Shown: positions 5,988 to 30,241 of the stretch, one piece after another
Position numbering within the stretch: position 1 is the stretch's first letter
Layout of the letters: the number at the start of each line of letters is the position of its first letter
Assembly: GCA_963619835.1 (NCBI GenBank)
Contig: CAVEYD010000001.1
Location: 1-62,222, forward strand
Length of the DNA stretch: 62,222 bases
Direction: 5' to 3'
Source: a bacterium
GTDB taxonomy: Bacteria; Bacillota; Clostridia; Christensenellales; CAG-314
The notes under the pieces: model-generated
Seen by the model: the letters and a program-made list of their open reading frames with translations, nothing else
Database searches by the model: none
Told to the model about the DNA's origin: nothing
Translations under genes and position numbers: made by a program

Positions 5988-6863
5988 TTAGTCGGAATTG
6001 ACTTCGAAGAAGACGGACAAATCAAACGTAAACGAAACACCTTGCAACGTTTGGAATTCGTCCAAAGTTGAGATGCCAAAGTTTTTGCCACTTGCCGAGA
6101 TAAGCGTGTTGTACTCGTCGTAAGACAACATTTTGAATTGCAACCAATAGTCTTGAACATTGACTATACGGTTTGATCCGGCTTCGTTTTCCTTTGTTTG
6201 TTCGTCCAAACCGAGAATAACATCATTGTCGATAACGGAAATTTGAGTAAAGCTTGTGTTTCCGTCAGAATCGGCATCGCCTAAACCTTCGTAAAGATAA
6301 CACCACTCTTCCGGTTGCGTAGTTGCCGTATCCGAGCTAAGTCTTGTTTCGTTTTCCACCTTAACGACTCGCATCGCAAACACAGAAAAAAGTTTTGCCT
6401 GTTCTGCCGTAAGGGTTGCGTCCGAAAGACGTATCGCAATGTCGTTTTTTGTGTCCCCCTTGTTGACAAGGCTAATCTTCATAGTGAAAGTTTGCGTAGG
6501 CAAAATAGATGTTAAAAAGTCTGACAAATGTATGCTTTCGATGGTTTGTCCGGCAATATCTGCTTTGGCTTCAGTCATTTTTTTGAAATCGAAATAGCGG
6601 GTTTCCTTGTAATATTCCGGCTTTTCGTGAGTTTCCGGTACTGCTTCGGGCGTGTCAGAGTCGGTAAGCAAATTTGGAACGCCGTTTATACTGGAGTCTT
6701 TTGCAGTGTAAAAGTAAACTTCGGAATTTACTCTTGCAATTTGGAAAGACATTGTGCCGCCCCTATCGGACATACTAAACCATGCATACACATTGACAGT
6801 AAGACAACAAGCTAAAATTACAATCATAACTATTGAACCGATAAGCGAAAATTTAGTTTTCAT
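5988..6863 (-). CDS. Secreted beta-rich protein with a SipW/TasA-type signal peptide (minor fibre/adhesin component candidate)
   Basis: 291 aa. N-terminus has a basic region, a TM segment, then VYAWFSMSD (compare TasA GGGTWAAFND). The body is T/S/D-rich. The start overlaps the upstream stop (TAATG at 6861-6865). Confidence 0.75.
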   Translation of the reverse strand: MKTKFSLIGSIVMIVILACCLTVNVYAWFSMSDRGGTMSFQIARVNSEVYFYTAKDSSINGVPNLLTDSDTPEAVPETHEKPEYYKETRYFDFKKMTEAKADIAGQTIESIHLSDFLTSILPTQTFTMKISLVNKGDTKNDIAIRLSDATLTAEQAKLFSVFAMRVVKVENETRLSSDTATTQPEEWCYLYEGLGDADSDGNTSFTQISVIDNDVILGLDEQTKENEAGSNRIVNVQDYWLQFKMLSYDEYNTLISASGKNFGISTLDEFQTLQGVSFTFDLSVFFEVNSD

Positions 6864-7633
6864 TATTCCGCCTCCTTCGGTGCAAGTACGATGCCATCCA
6901 GGTTTATTGTCTTTTCCGAAAGTGCATTTGTAGCCGCGCCTAAACCTTTGTACTGTGTTAAGTCGACATAAAGTCGAAACGTTACTGACATTGTAGTTTC
7001 CGTCATAGTTCCGCTTGTAATTTCACAAGTGTCCGAAACGGTAGTATCTGCCGAATAGTCAACAATAAATTTGCTGTTTGTTGTGTCTTCGGTTACAGTG
7101 CCATCTTCACTAACAGTACAAGGTACGATTTTGTAAACGCCAAGAACACTGTAAGTTTTTTCGCCTACAGTAAACGAACCTTCTTCATTGTCGTTTTGGC
7201 TGAGTCCGGAAAAATACAAGGTGTAATCCATGCCCTTGTGAGACTCGTCACAAGAGATGGTTAAAGAAATTTCAATAAACTCACCCGGGTAAAGCGAACT
7301 GTAAGAAAGCGGTCTGTAGTTGCCGTCATCGTCCTTAACAAAATCACCGTCACGATACAGATAGTAATTGTTAGAATTTTCAAAACGCTTGTAGTTACCT
7401 TCGGCAATTGTCGTGTGACTCATAACGGCTTTTGCCGTAATTTCGTCTCCGAACAACAAATATTCACGTGCGGCAGAAACTGAGATTCCGCTACCGCCAA
7501 CATCTTTGTTGGATGCAAACCATGCTTTTGTTGAAAACATAGTTATTACAATTGCAACAAACACAAACAACGTAAGTACCATGGAAGTTAGCGATGCAAC
7601 AAATTTTTTGTTTGCAAAAAGCTTTTTAATCAT
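6863..7633 (-). CDS. Secreted beta-rich protein with a SipW/TasA-type signal peptide
   Basis: 256 aa. TM segment followed by TKAWFASNKD. It contains a LYPGEFIEISLTIS segment that I read, from memory only, as TasA-like. ATGA start/stop overlap with the upstream 1098-aa gene at 7630-7633. Confidence 0.75.
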   Translation of the reverse strand: MIKKLFANKKFVASLTSMVLTLFVFVAIVITMFSTKAWFASNKDVGGSGISVSAAREYLLFGDEITAKAVMSHTTIAEGNYKRFENSNNYYLYRDGDFVKDDDGNYRPLSYSSLYPGEFIEISLTISCDESHKGMDYTLYFSGLSQNDNEEGSFTVGEKTYSVLGVYKIVPCTVSEDGTVTEDTTNSKFIVDYSADTTVSDTCEITSGTMTETTMSVTFRLYVDLTQYKGLGAATNALSEKTINLDGIVLAPKEAE

Positions 7634-10600
7634 GCGCTCACCTCCGCTGTGTCAACACGAACAACGGTAAAGTTAACGCGCAAAGTAACATTTGTTCCGC
7701 TTAACGTAAAGTTGTAATCAAGGTAAAAACGTGTTGATGTTGTTGGATCGTCGCCTTCGTAATTCCAAACAATGTTTGCATTTGAAACATATGCCGTATT
7801 ACCGCCGTAAGAATACGACGTGTTTAGCCCAAATATGTCCGGATCGGTTGAATAAGTAGTTGTACCGTCCGACGCCGTAGATGTGCTTGTAACAAACGGC
7901 ATAAAGCAGGTTACTATACTTGTGTTGCCTTTTAATTTCTTTTGATAAGCAATACTTTGCAAACTCTTGTAGTCATTGATACCACTTTGCTTTGTGTACA
8001 AAATTTCGGCAGAATCACTGCGAGTGTTGTAAACAGCAACGCCGGCTTCGGTAAGTTCGGCAAAATATTCCATGTTGACCAGTCCTTCCGAACCATAGAA
8101 CAAACCGTCAATTGTTGACGTATCAAGGTTGTCATAAACGCGAACAACGTTTAAGGAAGTTAGGTCTGTAAGAAAACTAAACGAATAAATATTGTTGTTT
8201 CCAAGGTTGATACTCTTAAGATTTTTAAGCGAGGACAGGTTTTCCAAAACAGAATCTACGGGGCTACTTGTCGATACGTTTACACCCAAACCGCAATTTT
8301 CAAGAATTAAAGTTTCAAGAGCGGACATGGATGCAATAGCCTTTATGTTCGTTTCGTAGTTTGTCCCACTAAGAGTAATTCCCGTAAGATTTAGCAATGT
8401 TGTACCTACAAGATATTTGAGTGCGCTAAAATCATTTACAGATTTTAGCATTTCACCGACTGTGGACGAACCACATGTTGTTGTGTCTTCTACACTTACG
8501 GCAATGCTCGATTTGAGCCAGTCGGTAAGAATTACAGAAGAATCTTCGCTAAATGATTCTCCGCCAAACAACGTACCGATTACCGTGTAAAGATTTTGGT
8601 CGGTAACAACACCGTCAACGGTGTTTTGTTCGGTTGCGGAATATCTTAGTATTCCCGGAATAGTGAAGCTTGTTGTAAGATATTTTGTCTTTTCGTTGTC
8701 CATGTAGGGCGTAAACATTGCATTTGTTGCGATGTGTCGATAGTTGTAAACAAACTCGATATCTTGGTTTTGACTGATTAGATTAGACGTGTCTATTGTG
8801 AATATCCACTTGGAATCGCCGTAAGTTGCAATACTCTTTACAGTAAGATTGTTAGCCGACAAATAACTGTTTAATGCCGGAACGTAAGAAACGTAGCCGT
8901 CATCATTGGTTGTAGGAGTAAGTGCAATTGTGTTTCCGTTGTAGTATAACGAAAGTGTTAGTCCGCTTGCCTGGTTCCAAATTTCATTGCCATCGGCATC
9001 ATAAGAAAGAATGTCGTAACAAACGGCAAAATCGTTGTCGGTTGAACCGCTTGCAAAAGGCATTTCAAAACTTTTTACAGTGTAACCTGCAGTCAATGAG
9101 AAAAACATTTGGTCATAGTAGTTGTAGTAAACAGGAAATTCCGAAATGTTTGTACCGGCAGTCGTTTCGCAACGAATTGGAATTTGTATGCTAACAGCTT
9201 CGTCTTCGCCTAAACCATCAATAACAAATTCACAGTTAAGTTGAACCGTTTGAACGTAGTCGAACGGGTTTTTGCCATCAACAACTTTTACGTAACCACG
9301 GGCATCGGCTGCCGAATCGTGAGTAAATGCTTGATCGCAACCAATAAGTTCGTATAGTCCGTTTGTGTCGTTTACAAGTGAGTATTTTACAGAAATTATT
9401 TTGTTGTTAACGTCGTCAGTAGCGCTGCTGCTTACCGGAGTTTGCAATTCGTAGTTTTTGAACGAAAACGTTCCGTTTTCCTGTTCGTTGGCTTCGACAG
9501 TAATTTGTCCGCCATAGTTAGCAATGGCAAAATCTTGTGCGTAAGATGCATCTGTACGAATAAGTCCGGTGTCGCTTGCGGTAACAGAATAAGCATGTGT
9601 GTCTGTTGAAGTGCCGATACCGATAGTTGCCTTTAACACAACTACTGCAGAAGTAGGCTCAAACACTGTTACATTTTCTTTTACCGTCATTGTGTCGGTA
9701 ACTTCGGACTTCATTGTAGAATCCGAATAGGTGTTGTAAGTAAGAGATATTGTTGTACCATTTGCAACAAATGAGGACGGAAGTTGAATAGAACGTGAAA
9801 TCACGTAAGAATAGGATGTTGTTCCGTCTTCGGCTGTTACAAGTTGATAGTACTTGTACATGTAGGAGTTGAGTAGCGACTTGCTTGCCGACATCAACTG
9901 CGTTTGATCTTGCGGATTTACAATGTGCAAGCAGAAATCCGATGTTCCTATTGTTTCGCTTGCGCCATCGGCAATTTTGCTGACAGTTACAGTTAGCGTT
10001 ACCGTTTGTATTGAGCTTTGCGGTGTTACGTTGCCGCTATTTGACAAAACATCGGCGTTGCTTGACGAATAAGAGATTGTTACGTCATCGTAGCCTTTTA
10101 CGTAAAGAGGTAAATCAAGGTCGCCAAACACAAATGCACATGCTTCCGCCGTGGTAGAATCGCCACTTAAGCAAAATTTTGTTGCAAGAAACAAGTTTGA
10201 ATTGAAAGAAGTTTCGGTAAGTGCCGAAACACTTTCGTAGTTTTGCATTTCGGGAAGAGTGTCGGGGTAGTTGACAACTTTTTTGGCAACAAGTCGAAGT
10301 GCGTTGTAAGCCGTAACAAAATTGTTGTTTGAAACATCCACGCAGTAATCTTCGGCAGTAAGGCTGTCACCTTTTAGGTTTTCAAACGAAACACTTTCTA
10401 AAATGTTTTTAGAATAGGGTGTGTCGTAATAGATTTTGCCAATTTTTGCAACACTACCTTCTGCACTGTCGTCGGCAATTTTTTCGTCAACAATCACTGT
10501 GCCGTTGGACAAAATTGTGTTGCCGTGGTAAGTGTGTGAAAAAGCAAGCTCGTTGCCGTCAAGATACAACTTGTTTCCGTTGAGATTGAGATGAACGTCG

Positions 10601-10926
10601 GAATTAAATTCAATGTCGGCATCCAAAGTGATGTCATTTTGAAAAACAAGTATGTAGCGGTTAGCCGAATCGGAAACACTACTGTTATCGTTGTTGATAC
10701 CGGTAACAACTTGACTTTCGTCAATGGTTGTTGTGCTTGCGCCAACGGAGTATGCCCACAAATCGTCAAAAGATGATACGGCTTTTTCGGTTGCCTTGCC
10801 CGTTACTTGTCCGTTGATGTTTTTAGAAAGTTCGGAGGTAAAATAAGCATAGGCCGAAACAGTCGTTGTTAAAGTGAATGCAACGATAAGAACGATTAAA
10901 ACAATTTTTTTTGAAATTGCTTTCAT
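7630..10926 (-). CDS. Giant secreted protein (1098 aa) with a SipW-type N-terminus and a C-terminal leucine-rich-repeat region
   Basis: N-terminus has a TM segment then AYAYFTSELS. The body is T/S/N/Y-rich. The LRR-like stretch reads LNLTGITLSG...LETLILENCGL...LKNLKSINLGNNNIYSFSFLTDLTSLNVVRVYDN. AAGGAGG RBS. No LPXTG motif and no C-terminal TM segment seen. Confidence 0.85.
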   Translation of the reverse strand: MKAISKKIVLIVLIVAFTLTTTVSAYAYFTSELSKNINGQVTGKATEKAVSSFDDLWAYSVGASTTTIDESQVVTGINNDNSSVSDSANRYILVFQNDITLDADIEFNSDVHLNLNGNKLYLDGNELAFSHTYHGNTILSNGTVIVDEKIADDSAEGSVAKIGKIYYDTPYSKNILESVSFENLKGDSLTAEDYCVDVSNNNFVTAYNALRLVAKKVVNYPDTLPEMQNYESVSALTETSFNSNLFLATKFCLSGDSTTAEACAFVFGDLDLPLYVKGYDDVTISYSSSNADVLSNSGNVTPQSSIQTVTLTVTVSKIADGASETIGTSDFCLHIVNPQDQTQLMSASKSLLNSYMYKYYQLVTAEDGTTSYSYVISRSIQLPSSFVANGTTISLTYNTYSDSTMKSEVTDTMTVKENVTVFEPTSAVVVLKATIGIGTSTDTHAYSVTASDTGLIRTDASYAQDFAIANYGGQITVEANEQENGTFSFKNYELQTPVSSSATDDVNNKIISVKYSLVNDTNGLYELIGCDQAFTHDSAADARGYVKVVDGKNPFDYVQTVQLNCEFVIDGLGEDEAVSIQIPIRCETTAGTNISEFPVYYNYYDQMFFSLTAGYTVKSFEMPFASGSTDNDFAVCYDILSYDADGNEIWNQASGLTLSLYYNGNTIALTPTTNDDGYVSYVPALNSYLSANNLTVKSIATYGDSKWIFTIDTSNLISQNQDIEFVYNYRHIATNAMFTPYMDNEKTKYLTTSFTIPGILRYSATEQNTVDGVVTDQNLYTVIGTLFGGESFSEDSSVILTDWLKSSIAVSVEDTTTCGSSTVGEMLKSVNDFSALKYLVGTTLLNLTGITLSGTNYETNIKAIASMSALETLILENCGLGVNVSTSSPVDSVLENLSSLKNLKSINLGNNNIYSFSFLTDLTSLNVVRVYDNLDTSTIDGLFYGSEGLVNMEYFAELTEAGVAVYNTRSDSAEILYTKQSGINDYKSLQSIAYQKKLKGNTSIVTCFMPFVTSTSTASDGTTTYSTDPDIFGLNTSYSYGGNTAYVSNANIVWNYEGDDPTTSTRFYLDYNFTLSGTNVTLRVNFTVVRVDTAEVSA

Positions 10927-11149
10927 TGTATTTTACCTCCTTGTAAGATTTTTTAGTGAAATGCTTTGTTTTGTTAAAAGAATTTTTGTTTTTTTAAGCA
11001 AACTGCTTTTGTTTGTTTTGGCAAACTACTTTTTTAGCGTGACACTTTAGTGATTTTGAAACTGCTTTGTTTTTTATTTTTAGCTTTTCAACTTTTTGTA
11101 GCAGTTTTAAGTTTTTACGTTAGATTGCATTTAACAAACAACAATGTAA

Positions 11150-14100
11150 CTAAATTGAAACGGTTACAGAGTAGTGACGTTCGTCAAACAAAGTGCCGTC
11201 TTCGTTGATTACGCGAGCAACAAGCTCAACCACTTCGGAGCCACCGGTTCCGCTGTAGTAATTAGAATCTGATGCAACGTAACGAACGTTGATAAACTTG
11301 GAAACCCCGTCCAAAACAAGATTTTGACCGCCTGTTGATTCGTTTACTTCGTCAAACGTGGTTATGATTTTCGGTTTGTCGAATGAAACGTTGCCGAGTC
11401 CGCCCATCGATTTGTAGTAATAAACCCCGGTCGTTGAATTTACTGTAAGTTCAAATAAGCCGTTTGCATAGTACTGAGAGTTCTCCGGAGCATCTAGTCC
11501 GGCTATGTTGACGTACATGATTTTACCTACAGAGTAAGTTCCGCTGACGGAATCCCAAATTGCTTCTTGCACTGCATCGTTGCTTGTTACTGTAACAAAC
11601 TCTTTACGAGCATTCGGCAGGTTGTCATGTTCGAAATAGAACATGCCATCGTCACCTACCAACAAACGATACACATAAGTTTTGGTGTAAGTGTGTCCGT
11701 TGACGGTTTTACTTGTGCCATTGTAGCAATAGTAAGTGCCGTAGTAGTTGCCAAACAAAACGTCTTTTAGGTGAGTGTTTGCTTCAGCCAAAATTGCTTC
11801 CATGTTGAAGTTGCTACTTGCAACAGCAACCGAATATTCGTTTAGCGTGTAGGCTGTGCCTGTAAATTTACGTCTAAAACATTGGTTTTCAACGTAGTAG
11901 TAAGCAAGGGCATTGCCTTCAACGTAATAGGAACCTCTTTGAGTTGAACCTGTGTACATGTAAAGGCTGTAGTTTGAGTCGCTTGCAAGAGTTTCGGCAG
12001 TGCTTAGTGCCGTCTTTATATCATCTGCGGAAGAAAGCACAGTTACGTAATCGTGGTAGTTAGCGGACGAAAAGTCCGAACTTGTTGTTGTGTCTTCTCC
12101 GTCAAAATCAATTTGGCTTGTACTTAAACCATCAAGGTAACTTACTGCCTGTGAATAAACGCTTTCCCATGTTGTGCCGGTGTAAGAACGCGAACCGACT
12201 GTTGCCGTAAATGTGTCGTCAGAATAGAAGTTGCCGTTAGAGTCCATGTTGCTGTAAGTTGGGTAAGACGAACCATTGTAACTAAAAGAAAACGACTCCG
12301 TAATTCTTGTTAAGCTTGTTGATCCCCACCCTCTTGATGTTGAATAGTAGTACGTTTCGTAAGTGCGAGATTGACTTATTTTTATATCTATGTAGTTTGC
12401 AGTGCTGCCTGCTTCGGCCTTTACAAAACGTTTAACTCCGGCACCGTCAATGTAGTACAACACACTTTGAGACTGACTTACAAAATATCTGCAAGTAGAA
12501 GTAGCTGTCATCTTTGTGGTAATTTGGTAAAAAGAATAGATCCTTACTGTATTGTCGCCAATAGTAATATTTCTCCTTCTACTATTACTATAAACTTGTT
12601 TGGATGTTCCGCCTACCTTTGAAGCATTTGTTTCAATATTGTTAGTTGTCATGCTGTAGGACGAGTAATCCGGGGAAGTAATCTCTTGCGATTTTGATTG
12701 AAGTTCGGTTGAGCGATATTCTGCAGTTTGTACGTCGGTCCAATCGATATCGCTTTCGGCCAGGCTTGTGGACGAATTTCCCGCAACGGTGTACGCCTGT
12801 TGAAGGACGTATTGACCACCCGAGTACACCACTTTGTAAACCGTGTTTGCTTTGTAGGTTGTGCCGTTGTAAGAAACGTCTTGCTTAAAAATGTAGTAGT
12901 TGCTTAACAACTTGTTCATTTCGTCGGCAGATGTAATTGACGTGTAGCTATCCGAACCGGCATCGTTTACAATGTAACCGGGGTTGCCACTGTTGACGTA
13001 CCATTGAATATCCTTGGCACCGCTACCGGCATCAACCGAAGTTGTTACAAGCAAGTACTTGCTGTTGACTTCCGTAAGTTCCTTAAGGAAACGAAGTTCG
13101 TCCGAAGTGGATGAGCGAGATGCTGTGTAAGGCGAACGATTGCCGTCATCAGTATAGTAGATTTGTGCGGATGGACTGTTGACCTTGATGTTGTCCAAAA
13201 CATAAGTTAGGTACACACCTTTGACGTTTACATCGGTTACGTCTAAGTAAGAGATTTTTTTGATGTCTACATTAAGAATGTCACCTATTGTAGTTACACC
13301 GGGATTGTAAGAAAAGTCCAATTTGGTAACTTCCGCCAAACGCGAAATGTTGGCAAGATCGAATTTGATGTTGCCTGTTGAGCAAGCTTGCATTACAAAT
13401 TCGTTAAGTTTGTTTCCGCTTGTGCTGTCCGCATCCATTTTGGTAACACGGTTGAAAAAGTTGCCAAGTGAACTTGTGGTTAAAAATGCAGGGTGCTTTA
13501 CTAAACCGTCTTCGCACAATCCGTAAACTCGAATTGCCTTTAGCCCTGTAAAGTAGGTGATACCTGCAGAAGAAAAGTCGAGTGCGGAAATTTCCGGAAC
13601 GTTGTAGTTTGTAAGTGCCGACGAGTAGTTGCCTTCCGACGAACGAAGTTTATTGTAAACTGCGTTAATCAAAATTCCTGCGCCATCGTCGTTTAAGTAA
13701 GTGGGAACAACGCAACTACTTAGAAATGTTTTGGCAAAAGTTTTACCTGCCGAGACGGAAACAGTTCCGTACCAAACAGCGATAATACACTGTGCTTCGT
13801 AATCAGAAATATACTCAGTGTCGTCTTCTTGATAGACTTCTTGTCGGTAATACTTGGAATTTGTGTAATTGGTTGAGGTGGGCGTTGCCCAATTGTCGGG
13901 ATTTGATGACCAGTCAAGCTTGGTGCTTGAATTGTCACTCGAACCATCCATAGCAATGTTGTAAGAACCTATTGCTCCCAAGTCCGGCGGTGATTTGGGA
14001 TACTGGCCTCCGGCATCTTTGAAGTCCTTTTCGTTTGTTGCCCACTGGAAAACTTCGGTGTACTTAAAGTAATTTTCACCAATAGAGTTTGCGGCAGTTA

Positions 14101-16927
14101 CGGCAGCAGTCAAAACTGCTTGATAGTCCGAAATAACGTGCAAGCCGTTGCCATAACTGTCGGTTGGCGTTTCGGTTGCGCTACTCCACAACGCGTTGAG
14201 CTGATCGGCATCGTCAAAGCCTACAACTTCCTTCAGAAATGCCTTGATTACTGCAGCTTCGGTTTCGTTCATGTATTCTTTACCGTCTGCCTTTGCACTA
14301 CTTGTTGATGTGTAAGTTGTACCAAACGAGAAAGGTAAATTGTCTGTGGCCGAGCCCGTTGCCCATGTTAGAAGCATGGCAAGATTGTAAGCGACTTGGT
14401 GCGAATTGCTTGAAGACGAACTTCCGCCTACACTAAACGTTAGAGACTCTACAAGAGCGGCATCACGAACAAGAATGTAGTCTTTTGTTGTGTTGGTAAC
14501 CGTGCTTGTACCTGTGTAGCCTGTTGTTGAATCTGAGCCGTCTACAGTTACGGACGGAAGCAAGCTTACGCGCGAAGCCGTTTCGCTATCGGCAACGTCA
14601 ACTACTTGTTGAGCCGTTTGATACTTGACAGTGTTAAACACACTGTAGTTGGCAAATCCGTTTTCGTCACACTTGATTACGCCCGGAGCATTTACGTACA
14701 GAATACGATAAGCACCTTCGGTTGCATCGCCTTCTGCCAAAGCATGCACTCTAATGGGCAAGCTTGTCTCGTTGTAACCAAACAGTGACGGATCGACATA
14801 AATATGAGTTTTAGATTCGCCGTCGACTGTTTCTACTTGTGCATCGGTGATGGCATTTGTAGCCGATTCACTTGCTTTGTAAGGCTCGTAACTAAGTGCA
14901 ATTGTTTGATAAACGTTGTCTAAGTAGAAATCGCCCGATTCGTACTTGCGACCATAGGTTGCGCGAGTATCAATTAAGTTTTGTAAAATGTCTACTTCGG
15001 ACAACTCCTTTTCAACATAGGTAAAAGCAAGTTCGTACAACTCTTGGTTGTTACCCGGTTTTATGATAACGTTGATTGTTTCTTCAACCGGTTCGGTGTC
15101 GCCCTTAAACAAACCGGAAACGGTAATTTGTGCAAACGTGTAGAACGTTGCTTGATTGAGGAACACACACATTCCGTCTTGATCGCCTGTGTCGTCTACC
15201 GAGATAAAGTTGTAACCACTGTTTACACGATAAGTAAGACTTGTTAAGCCGATATCTTTGTAAGCATCCCATGTGCGTTTTGGCGTAGCATCATCGTTGG
15301 AAATCATTGTGTAATCTGTACGGTAGTCTTGCGTGCCATCGATTGAAGGCAACTTGAAACGCGCCGTAAGATTTGTGGCATCGCTGTTTTTATCAACAAC
15401 CGTAAGGGTGATTGGCGATAATTGTGCAACAAGATACTTGAATTTGATTTCTTTAGATTGACTTGTAACTTTGAATGTAAAGCTTGTTGTGTAAACCTGT
15501 CCGTTTATGGTAATTTTTGCGTAAAGTGTAACTTCAGTGTTTTGCTTTAACGTGTCGGCAAGTTTACCATCTGCAGAAATACTGTTTTCGTCCGAGCTTG
15601 TCCACTCGATGGAAACGTTTTTATCTTCGATTCGCTTAGGTAAAAATACATTGTAAGTGATGGCTTCGGCATTTGAATTGTTGGGAATGTGCTTAAGCTC
15701 GTTTGTAAGCAAACTTGCAAAAATCTCATCGTTGCCATTGCCGATAATTTGAATTTCTTGTACAAAAGAATTGTCGCCTGAGCCGATTTTAACTTGTGCA
15801 ACACTTGTTTTTGAAACAGTGTTTGCAGTAACCATAGCACCGCTTACACTGCACTCGCCTTCAACCGAACTTGTGCCGATTGACGAAGCATAAAAACTAA
15901 GTGCGCCAAAAATATTGAGAGACGATCCGCTTTGTATTCCGCCGATAACATTTTGTGCAATGCGAGTTTTGAGAAGGCCAACTACACTTGCAGAATCGTA
16001 GGAATTTAACGTCACTTTTTCTGCATAAAGACTGCCAACGTTAACAGATTTGTTGCTGTTGTAAAAATCCTCAATATTTAAGTAGGTAGATTCTCCGTTT
16101 AGGACGATGCCGGCAGTACCATCAATTGACGTGTAATTGCAAACACTTGAGGTTGTGATGCCGTACTCACCTTCGCCGCTGAGTGTCAAGTTTGCGTTTA
16201 ACGTAAGCTTGTTTCCGTTTAAGTCGATATTTGCAGGATAAGCAACTTCTTTAGCGGTAGACAAGACAACATCATTTGCCAAAACGATTGTCGTTTTTGC
16301 CGTGCTACTGTTGAGCAAGCCTGTGTTGATATCGTTTATTGCGCTGATTAGTTCGTCTTCGGTTGAAACAAAAATATATTTTACGTAATCGGCATTTTGT
16401 ACGTAAGTGGTAACTTCTACATTAAACGGTGTGTTTGTAAGCGTGCTTGCAATGTGAAGTTCCAAGGACAACGTGTGTGTTGCCGTTGTGCCGCCGTCCT
16501 TTGCCATGGCTTTGTAATCGCCAAAGCTACTGCTTCCGTTTTGCACTTCGGCAAGAGTGCCGATAAATTCTCCGTCAAGATATGCCAGAACAGACGAGGA
16601 CAAATTTTGAAGTTGTTCTTCGGTAAGAGTTGTTGTTGACGACTTTACGACAAGTCCAAAATTGTAAACTATGTTTGCCTTGGTTTTGTTGGTGACAGTA
16701 AGAGTGATGTCTTTCTTTTCGCCTGCAGTAGCAAACGAAACATCGGTTGAGCTGACGTCAAGCGACAAAACACCGCTATCGGTCAACTTGTCTGTGTTTC
16801 CGTCGATGGAAGCATCCGTACGGAATGAGAACAAGACAACGGCAAAAGCCACGCTTGCTGTAAGCGTGATGCACAAAACAATTATTATCGCAATTTTAAG
16901 CGACTTGTTAAGTAGCAAATTCTTCAT
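11150..16927 (-). CDS. Giant secreted protein (1925 aa) with a TasA-like N-terminal module and an internal LRR region
   Basis: N-terminus has a TM segment then AFAVVLFSFRTDAS, followed by a ~170-aa module (GEKKDITLTVTNKTKANIVYNF...). The LRR-like stretch reads LDFSSAGITYFTGLKAIRVYGL...VTKLDFSYNPGVTTIGDILNVDIKKISYLDVTDVNV. AAGGAGA RBS. First gene downstream of the riboswitch at 16958-17060. Confidence 0.85.
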   Translation of the reverse strand: MKNLLLNKSLKIAIIIVLCITLTASVAFAVVLFSFRTDASIDGNTDKLTDSGVLSLDVSSTDVSFATAGEKKDITLTVTNKTKANIVYNFGLVVKSSTTTLTEEQLQNLSSSVLAYLDGEFIGTLAEVQNGSSSFGDYKAMAKDGGTTATHTLSLELHIASTLTNTPFNVEVTTYVQNADYVKYIFVSTEDELISAINDINTGLLNSSTAKTTIVLANDVVLSTAKEVAYPANIDLNGNKLTLNANLTLSGEGEYGITTSSVCNYTSIDGTAGIVLNGESTYLNIEDFYNSNKSVNVGSLYAEKVTLNSYDSASVVGLLKTRIAQNVIGGIQSGSSLNIFGALSFYASSIGTSSVEGECSVSGAMVTANTVSKTSVAQVKIGSGDNSFVQEIQIIGNGNDEIFASLLTNELKHIPNNSNAEAITYNVFLPKRIEDKNVSIEWTSSDENSISADGKLADTLKQNTEVTLYAKITINGQVYTTSFTFKVTSQSKEIKFKYLVAQLSPITLTVVDKNSDATNLTARFKLPSIDGTQDYRTDYTMISNDDATPKRTWDAYKDIGLTSLTYRVNSGYNFISVDDTGDQDGMCVFLNQATFYTFAQITVSGLFKGDTEPVEETINVIIKPGNNQELYELAFTYVEKELSEVDILQNLIDTRATYGRKYESGDFYLDNVYQTIALSYEPYKASESATNAITDAQVETVDGESKTHIYVDPSLFGYNETSLPIRVHALAEGDATEGAYRILYVNAPGVIKCDENGFANYSVFNTVKYQTAQQVVDVADSETASRVSLLPSVTVDGSDSTTGYTGTSTVTNTTKDYILVRDAALVESLTFSVGGSSSSSNSHQVAYNLAMLLTWATGSATDNLPFSFGTTYTSTSSAKADGKEYMNETEAAVIKAFLKEVVGFDDADQLNALWSSATETPTDSYGNGLHVISDYQAVLTAAVTAANSIGENYFKYTEVFQWATNEKDFKDAGGQYPKSPPDLGAIGSYNIAMDGSSDNSSTKLDWSSNPDNWATPTSTNYTNSKYYRQEVYQEDDTEYISDYEAQCIIAVWYGTVSVSAGKTFAKTFLSSCVVPTYLNDDGAGILINAVYNKLRSSEGNYSSALTNYNVPEISALDFSSAGITYFTGLKAIRVYGLCEDGLVKHPAFLTTSSLGNFFNRVTKMDADSTSGNKLNEFVMQACSTGNIKFDLANISRLAEVTKLDFSYNPGVTTIGDILNVDIKKISYLDVTDVNVKGVYLTYVLDNIKVNSPSAQIYYTDDGNRSPYTASRSSTSDELRFLKELTEVNSKYLLVTTSVDAGSGAKDIQWYVNSGNPGYIVNDAGSDSYTSITSADEMNKLLSNYYIFKQDVSYNGTTYKANTVYKVVYSGGQYVLQQAYTVAGNSSTSLAESDIDWTDVQTAEYRSTELQSKSQEITSPDYSSYSMTTNNIETNASKVGGTSKQVYSNSRRRNITIGDNTVRIYSFYQITTKMTATSTCRYFVSQSQSVLYYIDGAGVKRFVKAEAGSTANYIDIKISQSRTYETYYYSTSRGWGSTSLTRITESFSFSYNGSSYPTYSNMDSNGNFYSDDTFTATVGSRSYTGTTWESVYSQAVSYLDGLSTSQIDFDGEDTTTSSDFSSANYHDYVTVLSSADDIKTALSTAETLASDSNYSLYMYTGSTQRGSYYVEGNALAYYYVENQCFRRKFTGTAYTLNEYSVAVASSNFNMEAILAEANTHLKDVLFGNYYGTYYCYNGTSKTVNGHTYTKTYVYRLLVGDDGMFYFEHDNLPNARKEFVTVTSNDAVQEAIWDSVSGTYSVGKIMYVNIAGLDAPENSQYYANGLFELTVNSTTGVYYYKSMGGLGNVSFDKPKIITTFDEVNESTGGQNLVLDGVSKFINVRYVASDSNYYSGTGGSEVVELVARVINEDGTLFDERHYSVTVSI

Positions 16928-16957
16928 TGCCGTCTCCTTGAAAAAATCTTGTTAGAA

Positions 16958-17060
16958 TAAAAAATGCCAGACTCCCTTTGAATTGAGGTAATCCGGCAAC
17001 TGGCTGACTCGTAGGAGAGTCCCTATAGCTTTGCGTAATAGCCTTGCGACTATTTTGCTA
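16958..17060 (-). promoter_or_regulatory. c-di-GMP-I (GEMM-I)-like riboswitch candidate R1 in the 5' leader of the giant-adhesin operon
   Basis: Minus-strand read: UAGCAAAAUAGUC-GCAA-GGCUAUU-ACGCAAAGCUAUAGGGACUC-UCCUAC-GAGUCAGCCAGUUGCCGG. It has a 7-bp hairpin capped by a GNRA loop, plus the ACGCAAAGC and CAGCC.GUUGCC blocks that are hallmarks of GEMM-I. GGGAGUCUGGC plus U6 (16959-16976) follows and can pair with the aptamer GCCAG / GACUC segments. The fold of this expression platform is unresolved. Confidence 0.7.
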
Positions 17061-17104
17061 TTATCAAATTAACTTTGACACTATATTTATTTAATTCTTA
17101 ATAT

Positions 17105-17133
17105 ATTATGCAATAATATATTTTTTTTGTCAA
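17105..17133 (-). promoter_or_regulatory. Sigma-A-type promoter for R1 and the adhesin operon
   Basis: Minus strand: TTGACA (17128-17133), 17-nt spacer, CATAAT (17105-17110). It lies about 40 nt upstream of the aptamer. Confidence 0.6.
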
Positions 17134-17224
17134 TGTTTTGACATAAAAATTATTTAAAAAAACACCGCTTTTTATGTTTTTAGCACTTTTGTGATGCAAA
17201 ACTCGTTTGTGGCAACTTGTTTAC

Positions 17225-17258
17225 AAAACCGCCGTTTTAACAACAAAGCAGCGGTTTT
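17225..17258 (-). terminator. Terminator-like hairpin after the EAL gene
   Basis: Arms aaaaccgc (17225-17232) / gcggtttt (17251-17258). The minus-strand read ends GGUUUUGU. It is located 23 nt after the stop at 17281. Confidence 0.5.
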
Positions 17259-17280
17259 GTTTTTAAGTGGTAATTTAAGT

Positions 17281-19569
17281 TTATCTTGTGCTGAAGTTTT
17301 CTTCGACGAATTTGCGGTAGTCCGAATATTTCATCGGGCGAGAGAAGTAGTACCCTTGAATTACGTCGCACCCCATATCGATAAGCATGTCGTAATCGGA
17401 CTTTGTTTCTACACCTTCTTGTGTGACCTTTATGCCGATTTTCTTTACGATATCGATTGTTGAACTTAACAACATTTGGTCACGTTCCTTGGATGTTCCC
17501 TTGCTTAAGAAGAACTTGTCTAACTTTATTTCGTCCATATCGAGTGTTTTCAAAACGTTGTAGGACGAGTAACCTGTACCAAAGTCGTCAAGCGAACACA
17601 AAAATCCACTACTGTGCAACTCGGAAATAATTTGTGATAGATACTCGTAATTTTCGTAAGCAAAACTTTCGGTGAATTCGAGAGTTAAAAATTGATCGGG
17701 CACGTTGAACTTTGCTTTAATACGTTTGTAGTACTCGACGAAATCCGGTCTTGTTGCCGTTACGCGCGACACGTTGACAGATGCAGGGAAAACTTGTTTG
17801 CCTTCCGCAACACGTTGAGCAATATTTTCGCAAGCACGGAAGAACACGAAACGGTCTAATTTGTCAACGAATCCGTTTTCTTCAAATACCGGCAAGAATT
17901 CACCCGGTTGACGATAAGCATTGATCTTTGGATCGAACCAACGAACAAGAATTTCGCTGCCGTCCATAGTGTTTTTTCTTAAATTGAACTTGGGTTGATA
18001 GAACAAGTGGAATTCGCTGTTTTCCAAAGCCAGCTCCATACGTCCTTCGATTTCAGCGCGCTTAAAGTAGCCTTCCGAATGGATGTCTGTGTAGTAAGTG
18101 ATGCTGTAAAGTCCGTTTTGTTGAGCTGCCGTACGTTGAACAATTTTTAATTTGTCCAACATTTTTTGTGGCAATTCTTCGTGATCTTTTATTTCGTAAA
18201 CATAAAAGTCTAACGACGTTTTGTAATCTTCGTCTGTGAATTCGTATTTATCAATTAGGCGATAAATAGCATTTAGTCTTGAAGTCAACTCCTTTCGAGT
18301 TGAGAAGTTGAGCAACAAATAAAACTCACCGTCTGTGTGATAAGCATAAGTTTCACCGACAGTCATACTGTTTTGCAAAACGTTACGTTCGTGTACCAAA
18401 AAATCTTTTGTCGCTTCGTCTCCAAGATGTTCTATCATGTAACTGTAGTTTGTTATGCGCATGGTTACAAGAACAAAGTTGGACATTTTAAACTTTTTAA
18501 GATATTCCGGAACGGCAATAAAAAATCTACTTTCGGTAGCACAATTGAGCGTTTTGTTGACCATTTCAATGTTGTACATAAGCTTGTTTGTTTTGCGTCT
18601 GTTTAGAAGCACAAACAAACAGAACATCATTGCAATTACGGCTAAGCCGAACATAACACCCATGATTTGTCCGACCATTTCGTAACCGCTACCATAAACA
18701 TTTTTTAGTTTGTAAATGTTAAACAAGAACAAACCACCGTTTTGAGCACCGAGAGATTTAATTACAACGGCGCAATCATTTGTTCCGACAGTTGTAATTG
18801 CCGAGCCGTCAACACCCGTCAATATGCAATTTTTTAATGTTGCATAGCCTTGTTCGTCTGTAACAAGTGCAAACAAAATACCTTCGAGAACGTTGCCTGT
18901 TATTTGGTAGTTTTCGTTTTTAGTGTAGGTGTCGTCGTTGCATTTTTTTGCGTCTTGAAGAGGCGTGCCGTCATTTTTGCACAAAAGCGAAATATCTAAT
19001 ACTTCTTTGGACATACACTCGGCATCACCGATTTCTTCCCAAAGAATATCGTACCAAAAGACAATAATAACCCCATCAACAGCACCGTTGGATTTTGTAG
19101 GGCTGTAAACACCTATAGACATTAGACTTTCTTCGTATTGAAAAGCTTTTGTCAAACAAGTGTTTTCGTTTTGAGCTACTTCGGTCATAGCCGAATAAGT
19201 ACTTTCATTCCCTTCCGTGGAAAAGACTTTTCCGTCTTTTGTGTAAAAGATATCTTTAAATTTATCGGATTCGGCACTACTTAAGTCAGTTTTGGCACGA
19301 CTAAGTACCGAAATAGCATCGCCAAGCGAACTTAAAGATCGTACTTCTGAAGAAAGTGCATTGGAATAGGCTGTAATTTTGTTTATTTGCTTTTCAAGAA
19401 TAAGTTCCTGTTCGTTTGCGTAGTACTCGGCATGTTCGAGAGCTTGATTGTTTATGCCCTCTTTGTAAGTACTTGCCATGGTAATTATCTGCAAGAAAAA
19501 TGAAAGGCAAATTATCAAAACAATTACAAATATGATGATACTACCATTTTTTTTGAAAAATTTAATCAT
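17281..19569 (-). CDS. Membrane sensor protein with a degenerate GGDEF and an apparently active EAL domain (c-di-GMP phosphodiesterase)
   Basis: 762 aa. Two TM segments flank a ~270-aa extracytoplasmic region. The GGDEF site is degenerate (HTDGEF). EAL catalytic set appears retained, read by eye: FYQPKF..GSEILVRW, SVNVS, LEFTES, LDDFGTGYSS, IKLDKFF, VTQEGVET, IQGYYFSRP. GGAAGG RBS 9 nt after the sipW stop. Confidence 0.85.
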   Translation of the reverse strand: MIKFFKKNGSIIIFVIVLIICLSFFLQIITMASTYKEGINNQALEHAEYYANEQELILEKQINKITAYSNALSSEVRSLSSLGDAISVLSRAKTDLSSAESDKFKDIFYTKDGKVFSTEGNESTYSAMTEVAQNENTCLTKAFQYEESLMSIGVYSPTKSNGAVDGVIIVFWYDILWEEIGDAECMSKEVLDISLLCKNDGTPLQDAKKCNDDTYTKNENYQITGNVLEGILFALVTDEQGYATLKNCILTGVDGSAITTVGTNDCAVVIKSLGAQNGGLFLFNIYKLKNVYGSGYEMVGQIMGVMFGLAVIAMMFCLFVLLNRRKTNKLMYNIEMVNKTLNCATESRFFIAVPEYLKKFKMSNFVLVTMRITNYSYMIEHLGDEATKDFLVHERNVLQNSMTVGETYAYHTDGEFYLLLNFSTRKELTSRLNAIYRLIDKYEFTDEDYKTSLDFYVYEIKDHEELPQKMLDKLKIVQRTAAQQNGLYSITYYTDIHSEGYFKRAEIEGRMELALENSEFHLFYQPKFNLRKNTMDGSEILVRWFDPKINAYRQPGEFLPVFEENGFVDKLDRFVFFRACENIAQRVAEGKQVFPASVNVSRVTATRPDFVEYYKRIKAKFNVPDQFLTLEFTESFAYENYEYLSQIISELHSSGFLCSLDDFGTGYSSYNVLKTLDMDEIKLDKFFLSKGTSKERDQMLLSSTIDIVKKIGIKVTQEGVETKSDYDMLIDMGCDVIQGYYFSRPMKYSDYRKFVEENFSTR

Positions 19570-19578
19570 ATAACCTTC

Positions 19579-20286
19579 CTATTTGTTGTCGTTAGGTAAG
19601 TTGCTTTCGGCACCGGTTTGTTCGGTCGGTGTCTCGTTGTTGTTAAGTCCTTCGCGTTTAAGACGTTCAACTTCTTGTTGAACAAGCATGTCCATTTGTT
19701 TTTGCTTTTCGTCTTTCTGCTGTTCGTTGACATCGTCCTTTAACGAACGAACGACGTCCGGGATGTAAATAAGAGCCATTGATGCGACAAAGAACACACT
19801 TAACCCGGCAATCCCTGCCCAAGAAGAGAAAAGACGGCCGAGAAAAGTAAGCACAGGCAAGTTGCACTTGTACACTGCTACTACGTCGCCTGTTGCGACT
19901 CCGCCTTCGCTGTTCCACGAATCTTCGTAAGTGTTGTTGTCACCCTTTGTTTTGTAGTAACCGTCAACCGAAACATCGTTTATTACACGGTGAGTAATTA
20001 GTTGATTGTACACAGCCATGGACTCATCTTTACAAATAAACGTTATTACCGTGCCTTTAGATATATTTTGCCCATCGGTTTCCTTGACCAAAATAAAGCT
20101 TTTGGTGTTTATTGTCGGTTCCATGCTTCCGGTTTCTACCCACAAAAGCGAATAGCCGAAAACAAATGACGGACGTCCGTTTTTTTTGTTGGAAATAAGT
20201 TTTACAAATACGGCTACAAGCACGATTGCAACAATTATCCACATAATAACAGACACTATTTTGTGTTTAGGTTTTGTTTGACTCAT
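19579..20286 (-). CDS. sipW: ER/archaeal-type signal peptidase I (SipW-like), paralogue 1
   Basis: 235 aa. N-terminal TM segment, ETGSMEPT (Ser box), ITHRVI (His box), TKGDNN box, an extra C-terminal TM segment and a charged tail. The start lies 6 nt after the stop of the 1171-aa gene. Confidence 0.85.
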   Translation of the reverse strand: MSQTKPKHKIVSVIMWIIVAIVLVAVFVKLISNKKNGRPSFVFGYSLLWVETGSMEPTINTKSFILVKETDGQNISKGTVITFICKDESMAVYNQLITHRVINDVSVDGYYKTKGDNNTYEDSWNSEGGVATGDVVAVYKCNLPVLTFLGRLFSSWAGIAGLSVFFVASMALIYIPDVVRSLKDDVNEQQKDEKQKQMDMLVQQEVERLKREGLNNNETPTEQTGAESNLPNDNK

Positions 20287-29234: not shown

Positions 29235-30008
29235 CTATACCTCTTGGATGCCCAAGACTTGCGCAGGGGTTTGCTCGTCTGTTGACGGCAGACTTCCAAC
29301 AAAATCTTGCGAAGGAACAACACCTACACAACTTGTGCTACGAAGCTTTTGCAAGTCCGCATCGTTTTGGACTTGGCTTGCTACCACTTGGCAACCAAGC
29401 CCGTTTGCAAACGTCAACAACGCGTTGAGCACCGAAAGACCATCGGTTTTTTGCAAGTAGCTTGTAAGCTCCGGCGCAAAAAGAATATCGGGCGTTAAGC
29501 TTGCAAGTGCTGTCATGGGGAACAATTTTGTTCCAAAACCTTCGACGGCAACTTTTAACCCTATTGCGCGTGTGGATGCAATTAGCTTTGTGTACTTTTC
29601 GGTCGCAAACAACAGTTCTTGCGGAAAAACAAAACAAAGTGTTTTTGCAAGCTTAGATTGACGTTCGACAATGGCATCGACACGATTGATAAAATCGGGA
29701 CGTTCGAGCACACACAACGGACAATCCATTGCAATGAAGTTGAACGATTTGCCTTGATCAAGCAAGATTTGTGCCATCTTTGCGCCTTTTGTTAAAAGTA
29801 CAAAGAAAAGTTCGGCTTGCATCTCGTCGGAAACGGCAGAAAAACTTTCCTGCGACAAACTTCCAAACAAAATGCTGTTTACTGTGCCGCGTTGGTAGTA
29901 CCCTACGATTTCATCGCCGTACAAATTCCACACGGGAGTAAATTTTACTTGAATGGGGGCAACTCCGCTTTCAAGCGTGCGTTGCACATAGCTGTTTAGT
30001 TGCGACAT
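29235..30008 (-). CDS. Stand-alone degenerate EAL-domain protein (predicted catalytically inactive; possible c-di-GMP receptor)
   Basis: About 257 aa from the ATG at 30008 (GAGGAGAGAG RBS; the ORF-track N-terminal extension to 30206 would run through the riboswitch). It is collinear with the EAL domain, but every catalytic position I checked by eye is substituted: GYYQR for E-A-L-R, FIAMDCP for NxS, VFPQE for E-x-T-E, VAVEGFGT for DDFGTG, ILFAPE for KxD, VVASQVQ for AEGVE, and VVPSQDF for QGY. Confidence 0.7.
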   Translation of the reverse strand: MSQLNSYVQRTLESGVAPIQVKFTPVWNLYGDEIVGYYQRGTVNSILFGSLSQESFSAVSDEMQAELFFVLLTKGAKMAQILLDQGKSFNFIAMDCPLCVLERPDFINRVDAIVERQSKLAKTLCFVFPQELLFATEKYTKLIASTRAIGLKVAVEGFGTKLFPMTALASLTPDILFAPELTSYLQKTDGLSVLNALLTFANGLGCQVVASQVQNDADLQKLRSTSCVGVVPSQDFVGSLPSTDEQTPAQVLGIQEV

Positions 30009-30113: not shown

Positions 30114-30220
30114 AAAAAAAGTTGCAATCATACGCATCACTAATGTGATGAAAATTGCAACTCGGCTGACTTGTGAAGTCCCTATGGTTTTGCGTCGCCG
30201 CCTCACGACGGTTTTGCTAA
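30114..30220 (-). promoter_or_regulatory. c-di-GMP-I (GEMM-I)-like riboswitch candidate R2 with an intrinsic terminator
   Basis: Minus-strand read: UAGCAAAACCGUC-GUGA-GGCGG-CGACGCAAAACCAUAGGGACUUCACAAGUCAGCCGAGUUGCAAU. It has a GNRA-capped hairpin plus the ACGCAAA and CAGCC.GUUGC blocks, and aligns nearly position for position with R1. The aptamer 3' end GUUGCAAU (30154-30161) pairs with AUUGCAAC (30121-30128), followed by U7 (30114-30120). Confidence 0.75.
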
Positions 30221-30241
30221 ATATTTACCTTTTGTGCTACT

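What the first reader, a model, noticed from the sequence alone, without database searches (positions are those of the whole stretch)
16958..17133. GEMM-I-like c-di-GMP riboswitch candidate (R1) controlling the giant-adhesin operon
A TTGACA-17-CATAAT promoter is followed by a leader with three features. There is a 7-bp hairpin capped by GCAA (GNRA). The invariant-looking ACGCAAAGC block follows immediately. Then come CUAUAGGGACUC..GAGUCAGCCAGUUGCC. These are the blocks I associate with the c-di-GMP-I class. A segment GGGAGUCUGGC plus U6 lies downstream. It mimics the aptamer 3' half (GAGUCAGCC) and can compete for GACUC and GCCAG, which suggests a transcriptional switch. I cannot derive a clean terminator stem by eye, so the expression platform is unresolved. 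Riboswitch control of adhesins by c-di-GMP is known in Clostridia and Bacilli, so the class is not new. Its coupling to SipW-type giants is new to me.
Basis: partly seen in the sequence, partly recalled or inferred. Interest (0 to 1): 0.6.

Follow-up and report, generated by a model that had tools for sequence, protein, structure and literature searches.

The report
c-di-GMP riboswitch gating giant-protein operon
This is a genuine copy of a well-known RNA sensor (the class I cyclic-di-GMP riboswitch) that most likely lets transcription continue into a four-gene operon for two giant and two small exported proteins only when the messenger is high. It is an ordinary kind of switch in a setting the searched papers do not describe.

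Summary
Rfam RF01051 (c-di-GMP-I) matches 16992-17069 (-) at 57.1 bits against a gathering score of 35 (E 1.5e-8). It is one of only two hits in the 1.3-Mb genome.

The expression platform it could not resolve is an intrinsic terminator: arms 16998-16986 and 16977-16965, then U6 at 16964-16959. The 5' arm is the aptamer's own 3' tail, which holds ligand-contact C92, C93 and the proposed P1 3' strand. Ligand binding and termination should therefore exclude each other, which predicts an ON switch like Bacillus thuringiensis Bc2.

All 16 gene-linked relatives keep a hairpin plus U-tract at this spot. Of 6 homologues of the giant's N-terminal module found by protein search, 5 carry the riboswitch just upstream. 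The four-gene operon is syntenic in a sister species.

The genome has three canonical GGDEF cyclase domains, three EAL domains and no detectable cGAMP synthase, so c-di-GMP remains the likely signal.

The "mimic competition" idea is not conserved. "Adhesin" and "SipW-type" remain inferences. Verdict: a new member of a known kind, of modest interest.

The parts
17128..17133 (-). -35 hexamer TTGACA
   Evidence: TTGACA-17-CATAAT, 11 of 12 matches. Relatives have TTGACA...TAnAAT promoters at a comparable place upstream of their aptamers.
17105..17110 (-). -10 hexamer CATAAT. The inferred transcription start is near 17098.
   Evidence: The start site is an inference, not measured.
16989..17071 (-). 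c-di-GMP-I (GEMM-I) aptamer including the proposed closing helix P1. The Rfam match itself is 16992-17069.
   Evidence: RF01051, 57.1 bits against GA 35, full model length; the two hairpins are 94-100% paired across 16 gene-linked relatives, with compensatory changes.
17065..17071 (-). Proposed P1 5' strand UAAUUUG
   Evidence: It pairs with 16995-16989 (CGGAUUA): 7 bp including 2 G-U pairs. The register is not supported in fixed alignment columns across the family, where only 54% of cells pair, so it is inferred.
17059..17059 (-). A at the ligand-contact position equivalent to Vc2 G20 (Rfam model position 11)
   Evidence: alignment: the model has G and the sequence has A. A occupies this position in 21 of 97 distinct aptamers sampled. 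Its meaning is described in PMC6140456, PMC6456294 and PMC4933901.
17033..17058 (-). First hairpin with GCAA (GNRA) tetraloop at 17047-17044
   Evidence: compensatory changes at 5 of 6 stem pairs.
17028..17036 (-). Conserved ACGCAAAGC block. The A at 17032 is equivalent to Vc2 A47.
   Evidence: These columns are invariant in A2. The A47 equivalence rests on my own recalled numbering of the Vc2 sequence.
16998..17030 (-). Second hairpin (short form, without the 11-nt tetraloop receptor)
   Evidence: model positions 55-70 largely deleted; 100% paired.
16996..16996 (-). C equivalent to Vc2 C92, which forms a Watson-Crick pair with one guanine of the ligand
   Evidence: alignment. The role of C92 is given in PMC6140456.
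16965..16998 (-). Intrinsic terminator hairpin. The 5' arm is UGCCGGAUUACCU (16998-16986) and the 3' arm is AGGGAGUCUGGCA (16977-16965).
   Evidence: it is part of the minimum-free-energy fold. The hairpin segment folds at -16.4 kcal/mol. All 16 relatives have a homologous hairpin at the same place.
16959..16964 (-). U6 tract of the terminator (context AUUUUUUAUU)
16934..16939 (-). Shine-Dalgarno AAGGAG, 6 nt before the ATG at 16927-16925
11150..16927 (-). Gene 1: 1925-aa S/T-rich exported protein. It has one N-terminal membrane helix, then a conserved beta-sandwich module. No LPxTG motif.
7630..10926 (-). Gene 2: 1098-aa exported protein whose N-terminus contains ...SAYAYFTSE
   Evidence: No terminator or strong promoter was flagged in the 223-nt gap before it.
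6863..7633 (-). Gene 3: 256-aa exported protein (...KAWFAS). Its start overlaps the end of gene 2.
5988..6863 (-). Gene 4: 291-aa exported protein (...VYAWFSMSD). Its start overlaps the end of gene 3.
17223..17260 (-). Hairpin ending the upstream unit (762-aa EAL protein gene, 17281-19569). It separates that unit from the R1 promoter.
   Evidence: fold; EAL domain.
30153..30228 (-). R2, the only other c-di-GMP-I aptamer in the genome. It also has A at position 20 and heads the neighbouring operon.

Best explanation
R1 is a functional class I cyclic-di-GMP riboswitch with its own sigma-A-type promoter. It acts as a transcriptional ON switch.

Without ligand, the leader folds its two aptamer hairpins, and the 3' tail of the aptamer (UGCCGGAUUACC) pairs with GGGAGUCUGGCA. 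That forms an intrinsic terminator in front of a U6 tract, and transcription stops about 140 nt after the start.

With ligand, C92 pairs with a guanine of the ligand, and the tail closes helix P1 with UAAUUUG. The terminator's 5' arm is then unavailable. RNA polymerase reads on into a four-gene operon (1925, 1098, 256 and 291 aa). All four products are exported S/T-rich proteins with a TasA/CalY-like N-terminal motif.

The physiological ligand is most likely c-di-GMP, although the pocket carries A instead of G at position 20.

Shown here: aptamer membership, the presence and conservation of the terminator, its overlap with the aptamer tail, and the conserved linkage to the gene family.

Inferred: ligand identity, direction of switching, the P1 register, the operon extent and the surface or adhesive role of the products.
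For: - Aptamer: RF01051 at 57.1 bits against 35. The stems covary across 16 gene-linked relatives.
- Terminator: it is in the minimum-free-energy fold (-37.6 kcal/mol). The fold with P1 enforced is -25.8 kcal/mol, so the default state is termination.
- Conservation of the platform: all 16 relatives have a -13 to -22 kcal/mol hairpin plus U-tract whose 5' arm starts at or before the GCC that holds C92 and C93. Arm sequences differ and are compensated, for example GCCGG/CUGGC against GCCAAA/UUUGGC.
- Linkage to the gene family: a protein search with the giant's first 200 aa in 401 genomes of the order found 6 other loci, and 5 of them have RF01051 just upstream. L023 and L065 add two more giants behind the same leader type.
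- Operon: it is syntenic in a same-genus species at 38-43% protein identity, while the aptamer is nearly unchanged.
- Ligand: the genome has three GGDEF domains with intact GGDEF and the canonical Asp at the Hypr-Ser348 position, three EAL domains and no SMODS match.
- Precedent: Bc2 of B. thuringiensis also has an A at the G-alpha contact, a terminator platform and a downstream adhesin gene, and is switched ON by c-di-GMP in vitro and in vivo (PMC4933901).
Against:
- A at position 20 is the determinant that makes Geobacter GEMM-Ib selective for cGAMP and makes Vc2 G20A bispecific (PMC6456294, PMC6140456).
- The P1 register is not supported by fixed-column covariation (54% paired).
- The simple terminator scan did not flag the hairpin. 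I attribute this to its internal loop and 8-nt apical loop.
- Operon continuity across the 223-nt gap between genes 1 and 2 rests only on the absence of flagged signals.
Confidence: 0.72

Rival explanations
1. The same fold and platform, but the physiological ligand is 3',3'-cGAMP (a GEMM-Ib-type sensor), or the switch is truly bispecific and integrates both messengers.
For: - Both R1 and R2 have A at Vc2 position 20 together with A47 and C92, the pocket signature shared with GEMM-Ib.
- Changing A20 to G flips a Geobacter riboswitch from cGAMP to c-di-GMP (PMC6456294).
Against: - No Hypr-type GGDEF was found: all three GGDEF domains have Asp at the Ser348 position.
- There is no SMODS/CD-NTase match in a 98%-complete genome.
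- Orthologous leaders in front of homologous genes switch freely between A and G at position 20, which argues for one shared ligand.
- Bc2 has A at this contact and responds to c-di-GMP (PMC4933901).
- EAL and GGDEF genes sit beside these loci.
Confidence: 0.12
2. R1 is an OFF switch: ligand binding promotes termination, and the giants are made at low c-di-GMP.
For: All seven functional class I riboswitches of C. difficile are OFF switches (PMC6366702), so direction cannot be assumed from class.
Against: - The terminator's 5' arm is the aptamer's own ligand-contacting tail (C92, C93 and the P1 3' strand). The bound aptamer and the terminator therefore compete for the same bases, in all 16 relatives.
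- No separate antiterminator that would be released by ligand binding was found.
Confidence: 0.08
3. One reading: the downstream GGGAGUC mimics the aptamer's GAGUCAGCC and competes for GACUC and GCCAG, remodelling the second hairpin instead of forming a classical terminator.
For: GAGUC (16973-16969) can pair with GACUC (17021-17017), and CUGGC with GCCAG.
Against: - Minimum-free-energy and centroid folds keep the second hairpin intact and pair the segment with the 3' tail instead.
- The close relatives have 3' arms such as GUAGUUUGGC, with no GAGUC. The mimicry is therefore not conserved, while the tail-based hairpin is.
Confidence: 0.05
4. A decaying or chance look-alike with no regulatory role.
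For: None beyond the absence of experiments.
Against: - E 7.6e-11 per genome.
- The aptamer is near-identical in a species whose operon proteins are only 38-43% identical.
- Promoter, terminator and gene linkage are conserved across genera.
Confidence: 0.02

Closest known systems
Bc2 c-di-GMP-I riboswitch of Bacillus thuringiensis/cereus, upstream of cap/cbpA (collagen adhesion protein) (PMC4933901, PMC7423583)
   Same: - Class I aptamer in a Firmicute.
- A (Bc2 A11) at the G-alpha contact and C at the G-beta contact.
- An intrinsic terminator directly after the aptamer.
- ON logic: repression, then de-repression at high c-di-GMP.
- A large surface protein gene downstream.
   Different: - Bc2 is experimentally validated; R1 is not.
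- Bc2 controls a single sortase-type collagen adhesin.
- R1 heads a four-gene operon of proteins with a TasA/CalY-like N-terminal motif and no LPxTG, in an uncultured small-genome gut Clostridia lineage.
Vibrio cholerae Vc2, the structural prototype of c-di-GMP-I (Rfam RF01051)
   Same: The fold, A47, C92 and the GNRA-capped first hairpin.
   Different: - Vc2 has G20; R1 has A.
- Vc2 does not act through transcription termination (PMC6366702).
- R1 has a shortened second hairpin without the 11-nt tetraloop receptor.
Geobacter GEMM-Ib (3',3'-cGAMP) riboswitches, e.g. Gs1761/pgcA and Gmet_0970
   Same: - A at position 20 with C92.
- A terminator-based ON platform.
- Control of extracellular and surface proteins (PMC6456294).
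   Different: - Geobacter has the Hypr GGDEF GacA (Ser348) that makes cGAMP.
- This genome has only canonical Asp-type GGDEF domains and no CD-NTase match.
[quoted passage not shown]
   Same: c-di-GMP-induced (ON) expression of surface adhesins in a Clostridia member.
   Different: They belong to a different aptamer class (c-di-GMP-II). The C. difficile class I switches are all OFF.

Membership tests
c-di-GMP-I riboswitch (Rfam RF01051) | Covariance-model score at or above the curated gathering score | tested here: met
   57.1 bits against 35, model positions 1-87 of 87. It is still the top hit in the genome-wide search.
c-di-GMP-I riboswitch (Rfam RF01051) | Two adjacent hairpins, the first GNRA-capped, supported by covariation | tested here: met
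   GCAA loop. The stems are 94-100% paired across 16 relatives. Eleven pairs in the whole tested structure show changes on both sides, 5 of them in the first hairpin stem, and 0 of 500 shuffles reach the covariation score.
c-di-GMP-I riboswitch (Rfam RF01051) | Ligand-contact nucleotides A47 and C92 | tested here: met
   A at 17032 and C at 16996, from the alignment. Both columns are invariant or nearly so in A2.
c-di-GMP-I riboswitch (Rfam RF01051) | G at position 20 (Hoogsteen contact to G-alpha) | tested here: not met
   A at 17059. This position varies naturally within the family: 21 of 97 sampled aptamers have A. The validated c-di-GMP switch Bc2 also has A there (PMC4933901). It therefore does not exclude membership, but it leaves specificity open.
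c-di-GMP-I riboswitch (Rfam RF01051) | Binds c-di-GMP and changes structure or termination | not testable with these tools
   Needs in-line probing, ITC or transcription assays.
GEMM-Ib (3',3'-cGAMP) subclass | A at position 20 | tested here: met
GEMM-Ib (3',3'-cGAMP) subclass | A cGAMP synthase in the same organism (Hypr GGDEF with Ser/Thr at the Ser348 position, or a DncV-like CD-NTase) | tested here: not met
   The three GGDEF domains read GHIAGD, GHNEGD and GHRVGD. There is no PF18144 match. The genome is 97.9% complete, so absence is likely but not proven.
GEMM-Ib (3',3'-cGAMP) subclass | Selectivity for cGAMP over c-di-GMP | not testable with these tools
   Sequence alone cannot decide, because natural A20 members include bispecific ones (PMC6140456).
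c-di-GMP-I-UAU variant (Rfam RF03168) | Score at or above the gathering score | tested here: not met
   53 bits against 65.9. R1 has A at position 20 and C at position 92. From my own recollection, the variant's name refers to U at both of those positions.
Rho-independent terminator expression platform (ON type) | A stable hairpin directly followed by a U-tract, with its 5' arm inside the aptamer | tested here: met
   -16.4 kcal/mol hairpin at 16998-16965 followed by U6. The overlap covers C92, C93 and the P1 3' strand, and it is conserved in all 16 relatives.
SipW-cognate signal peptide / TasA-CalY family (regulated proteins) | Match to a curated signal-peptide or TasA family model, or TasA-like sequence or fold | tested here: inconclusive
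   - The NCBIfam scan of the N-termini returned no signal-peptide family at E up to 10.
- BLASTP against the locus's small TasA-like protein gave E 1.8.
- The AlphaFold model (pLDDT 72.5) is a membrane helix plus a beta-sandwich. Foldseek gives only generic jelly-roll hits with TM 0.27 or lower.
- The motif A-[YW]-F-[ST] after one hydrophobic helix is present in three of the four products, and VLFSF in the fourth.
- A SipW-type peptidase gene lies 2.6 kb upstream.

The most novel reading that the evidence does not exclude
R1 and R2, both with A at position 20, may not be plain c-di-GMP sensors. They could be bispecific or cGAMP-preferring switches in a gut Clostridia lineage that has no recognisable cGAMP synthase, which would imply an unknown source of the signal. 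Alternatively, the natural A/G polymorphism at position 20 among orthologous leaders may tune the c-di-GMP threshold, so that the giant proteins are deployed only at the highest messenger levels, after the fibre-assembly operon behind R2.
Probability: 0.12. Interest if true: 0.55.

Novelty: new member of a known kind. Interest (0 to 1): 0.3.

Why it matters
The switch itself is textbook. Its value is as an annotation handle. It ties an otherwise unannotatable four-gene operon of giant and small exported proteins to c-di-GMP, the sessility signal. That supports a surface, matrix or attachment role in an uncultured gut Clostridia lineage.

Leaders of this type precede proteins with the same N-terminal motif in many Clostridia genomes: about 19 of 88 sampled aptamers. 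The searched literature does not describe this link. A messenger-responsive leader gives a simple experimental entry point to both operons.

Tried and rejected
1. A strict R1 pattern scan of metagenome contigs found nothing. A relaxed pattern found 3 loci.
3. TasA-likeness of the giant's N-terminal module was not supported. BLASTP was not significant, the NCBIfam scan of the N-termini returned no signal-peptide family, PDB sequence search gave no hit, and Foldseek gave only generic beta-sandwich hits.
4. P1 covariation in fixed alignment columns was inconclusive (54% paired). A second P1 register (UAAU/AUUA next to position 20) fits some relatives better, for example L107.
5. The sensitive Rfam scan found no further GEMM-like element before the other giant genes of the window. 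It lists RF03168 for R1, but below its gathering score.
6. An EAL gene upstream of the riboswitch is not a conserved feature. Upstream genes differ among relatives, and one (L107) has a GGDEF protein there.
7. The second-hairpin loop UCUCCU is complementary to the Shine-Dalgarno AGGAGA, but the loop is not conserved. I rejected it as a translational element.
8. The paper by Kellenberger et al. 2015 could not be retrieved under the id I tried.

Full report
**Observation**

- a TTGACA-17-CATAAT promoter with 11 of 12 consensus matches;
- a 7-bp hairpin with a GCAA loop;
- the ACGCAAAGC block;
- the second hairpin, GGGACUC...GAGUCAGCCAGUUGCC;
- GGGAGUCUGGC followed by U6.

The proposed check was run. 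Rfam RF01051 (c-di-GMP-I) matches 16992-17069 (-) at 57.1 bits against a gathering score of 35, E 1.5e-8, over the whole model. A second hit, R2, lies at 30153-30228 (-). These are the only two hits in the 1.30-Mb genome, which is 97.9% complete. A sensitive scan found no further GEMM-like element in the window. It lists the clan relative RF03168 for the same place, but at 53 bits, below its cut-off of 65.9.

**Expression platform**

RNAfold places one in the minimum-free-energy structure. UGCCGGAU(UA)CCU (16998-16986) pairs with AGG(GA)GUCUGGCA (16977-16965), followed by AUUUUUUAUU. The hairpin segment folds at -16.4 kcal/mol. The simple terminator scan did not flag it; I attribute that to its internal loop and 8-nt apical loop.

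The 5' arm is the aptamer's own 3' tail. It contains C16996, the equivalent of Vc2 C92, which pairs with one guanine of the ligand (PMC6140456). It also contains C16995 and the stretch CGGAUUA, which can close a 7-bp P1 helix with UAAUUUG (17071-17065).

The full leader folds to -37.6 kcal/mol with the terminator and to -25.8 kcal/mol when P1 is enforced. The default state is therefore termination, and ligand binding must pay for the alternative. That is the logic of an ON switch. The Shine-Dalgarno AAGGAG (16939-16934) and the ATG (16927) lie downstream of the terminator.

**Comparative evidence**

- In 24 other genomes of the genus, only three have RF01051 hits.
- A pattern scan of species-representative genomes, plus a protein search with the first 200 aa of the 1925-aa protein in 401 genomes of the order, gave a set of related leaders.
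- Of the 6 non-self loci found by protein similarity alone, 5 have an RF01051 hit directly upstream.
- L023 (1972-aa ORF) and L065 (at least 1708 aa) carry the same leader type before proteins that start with the same ...AVVLFSF(K/R)... N-terminus.
- All 16 gene-linked leaders have a TTGACA/TAnAAT promoter, the aptamer, and then a hairpin of -13 to -22 kcal/mol with a U-tract. The hairpin's 5' arm begins at or before the GCC that holds C92 and C93.
- Arm sequences differ and are compensated: GCCGGAUU/AGUCUGGC here, GCCAAAUUAC/GUAGUUUGGC in the sister species, and unrelated arms in more distant genera.
- On an alignment of the 16 aptamers, the two hairpins are 94-100% paired with compensatory changes, and 0 of 500 shuffles reach the covariation score.
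- P1 in fixed columns is only 54% paired, so its register stays an inference.

**What is regulated**

Downstream lie four same-strand genes of 1925, 1098, 256 and 291 aa. The last two overlap their predecessors. The 223-nt gap between the first two shows no flagged terminator or strong promoter.

The same four-gene order follows the orthologous riboswitch in a sister species. Protein identity there is 38-43%, while the aptamer is nearly unchanged.

All four products have one N-terminal hydrophobic helix followed by A-[YW]-F-[ST] or VLFSF. They are S/T-rich and lack LPxTG or a C-terminal anchor. Pfam finds only an aBig_2 domain in each giant and a sub-threshold LRR match.

The N-terminal 190 aa form a conserved module. 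It is predicted as a membrane helix plus a beta-sandwich at pLDDT 72.5. Foldseek, BLASTP, NCBIfam and PDB sequence searches gave no specific link to TasA. "Adhesin" and "SipW substrate" are therefore plausible inferences, helped by a SipW-type peptidase gene at 19579-20286, but they are not demonstrated.

The upstream 762-aa EAL protein gene ends in its own strong hairpin at 17260-17223. Upstream genes differ among relatives. The conserved unit is thus promoter, riboswitch and downstream gene.

**Ligand**

The Rfam alignment shows A at model position 11, the equivalent of Vc2 G20. R2 has the same.
- Changing A20 to G flips a Geobacter GEMM-Ib riboswitch to c-di-GMP (PMC6456294).
- The validated c-di-GMP ON switch Bc2 of B. 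thuringiensis also has an A at the G-alpha contact (PMC4933901).
- 21 of 97 sampled aptamers have A there.
- Orthologous leaders before homologous genes vary between A and G.

The genome has three GGDEF domains with intact GGDEF and Asp at the position that is Ser in cGAMP-making Hypr enzymes. It has three EAL domains and no CD-NTase match. I therefore take c-di-GMP as the in-vivo ligand, at about three in four. Dual specificity is possible in vitro.

**Comparison and verdict**

The closest characterised system is Bc2 with cap. It shares the class, the same A at the G-alpha contact, terminator-based ON logic and a large surface protein downstream (PMC4933901).

R1 differs in three ways. It is untested. 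It controls a four-gene operon of TasA/CalY-motif proteins, not a sortase-anchored adhesin. And it sits next to a second riboswitch-headed operon of the McrBC-linked "CoCoPALM" type, whose describing paper mentions no riboswitch.

I found no paper linking c-di-GMP riboswitches to sipW, TasA or camelysin-type loci. In the sampled genomes, though, about 19 of 88 aptamers precede proteins with this N-terminal motif. Earlier notes of this scan report GEMM-I switches before giant surface proteins in several phyla.

This is a new member of a known kind. The finding is correct, now has a resolved platform, and is of modest interest.

Noticed in passing
L116:1417-2281 (-) and L117:1096-1400 (+); also L007 (G012:C166): Leaders in other genera (L116, L117) and in another species of this genus (L007) repeat the aptamer's 3' strand (AGCCAGUUGCCG.. 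or CCCGGUUGCAAU) followed by a second terminator. This is the same tandem-terminator layout as R2 of this window, so that layout is not confined to one species.
   Followed up: partly
window 30153-30228 (-): R2, the only other c-di-GMP-I aptamer in the genome, also has A at position 20 (UUAGCAAA). It precedes a 257-aa EAL-only protein (29235-30008).
   Followed up: partly
loci L012-L110: About 19 of 88 sampled GEMM-I aptamers from species-representative genomes precede proteins with a signal-anchor followed by (A/G)W(F/L)(A/S/T). Most are 245-330 aa; three are giants or cut giants. Riboswitch control of this protein class looks widespread in uncultured Clostridia.
   Followed up: partly
window 5988-16927 (-): All four products of the R1 operon share the layout of one N-terminal hydrophobic helix plus an aromatic-Phe motif. 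None has LPxTG or a C-terminal anchor, and the giants are 22-23% Ser+Thr.
   Followed up: partly
window 17011-17017 and 16934-16939 (-): The apical loop of the second hairpin (UCUCCU) is complementary to the Shine-Dalgarno AGGAGA of gene 1. The loop is not conserved in relatives, so this is probably chance.
   Followed up: yes
genome level: The locus is patchy. Four of 25 genus genomes carry c-di-GMP-I riboswitches. Seven of 401 genomes of the order, this one included, carry the giant's N-terminal module. This looks like an accessory island.
   Followed up: partly
L107:1-1865: In one relative, the gene directly upstream of the R1-type leader encodes a canonical GGDEF protein (...SHAIGD...RIGGDEF). 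In this window the corresponding gene encodes an EAL protein.
   Followed up: no
window 16991-17068: In E-value mode the clan filter reports RF03168 (c-di-GMP-I-UAU) instead of RF01051 for both riboswitches, although both hits are below that family's gathering score. This could mislead automated annotation.
   Followed up: yes
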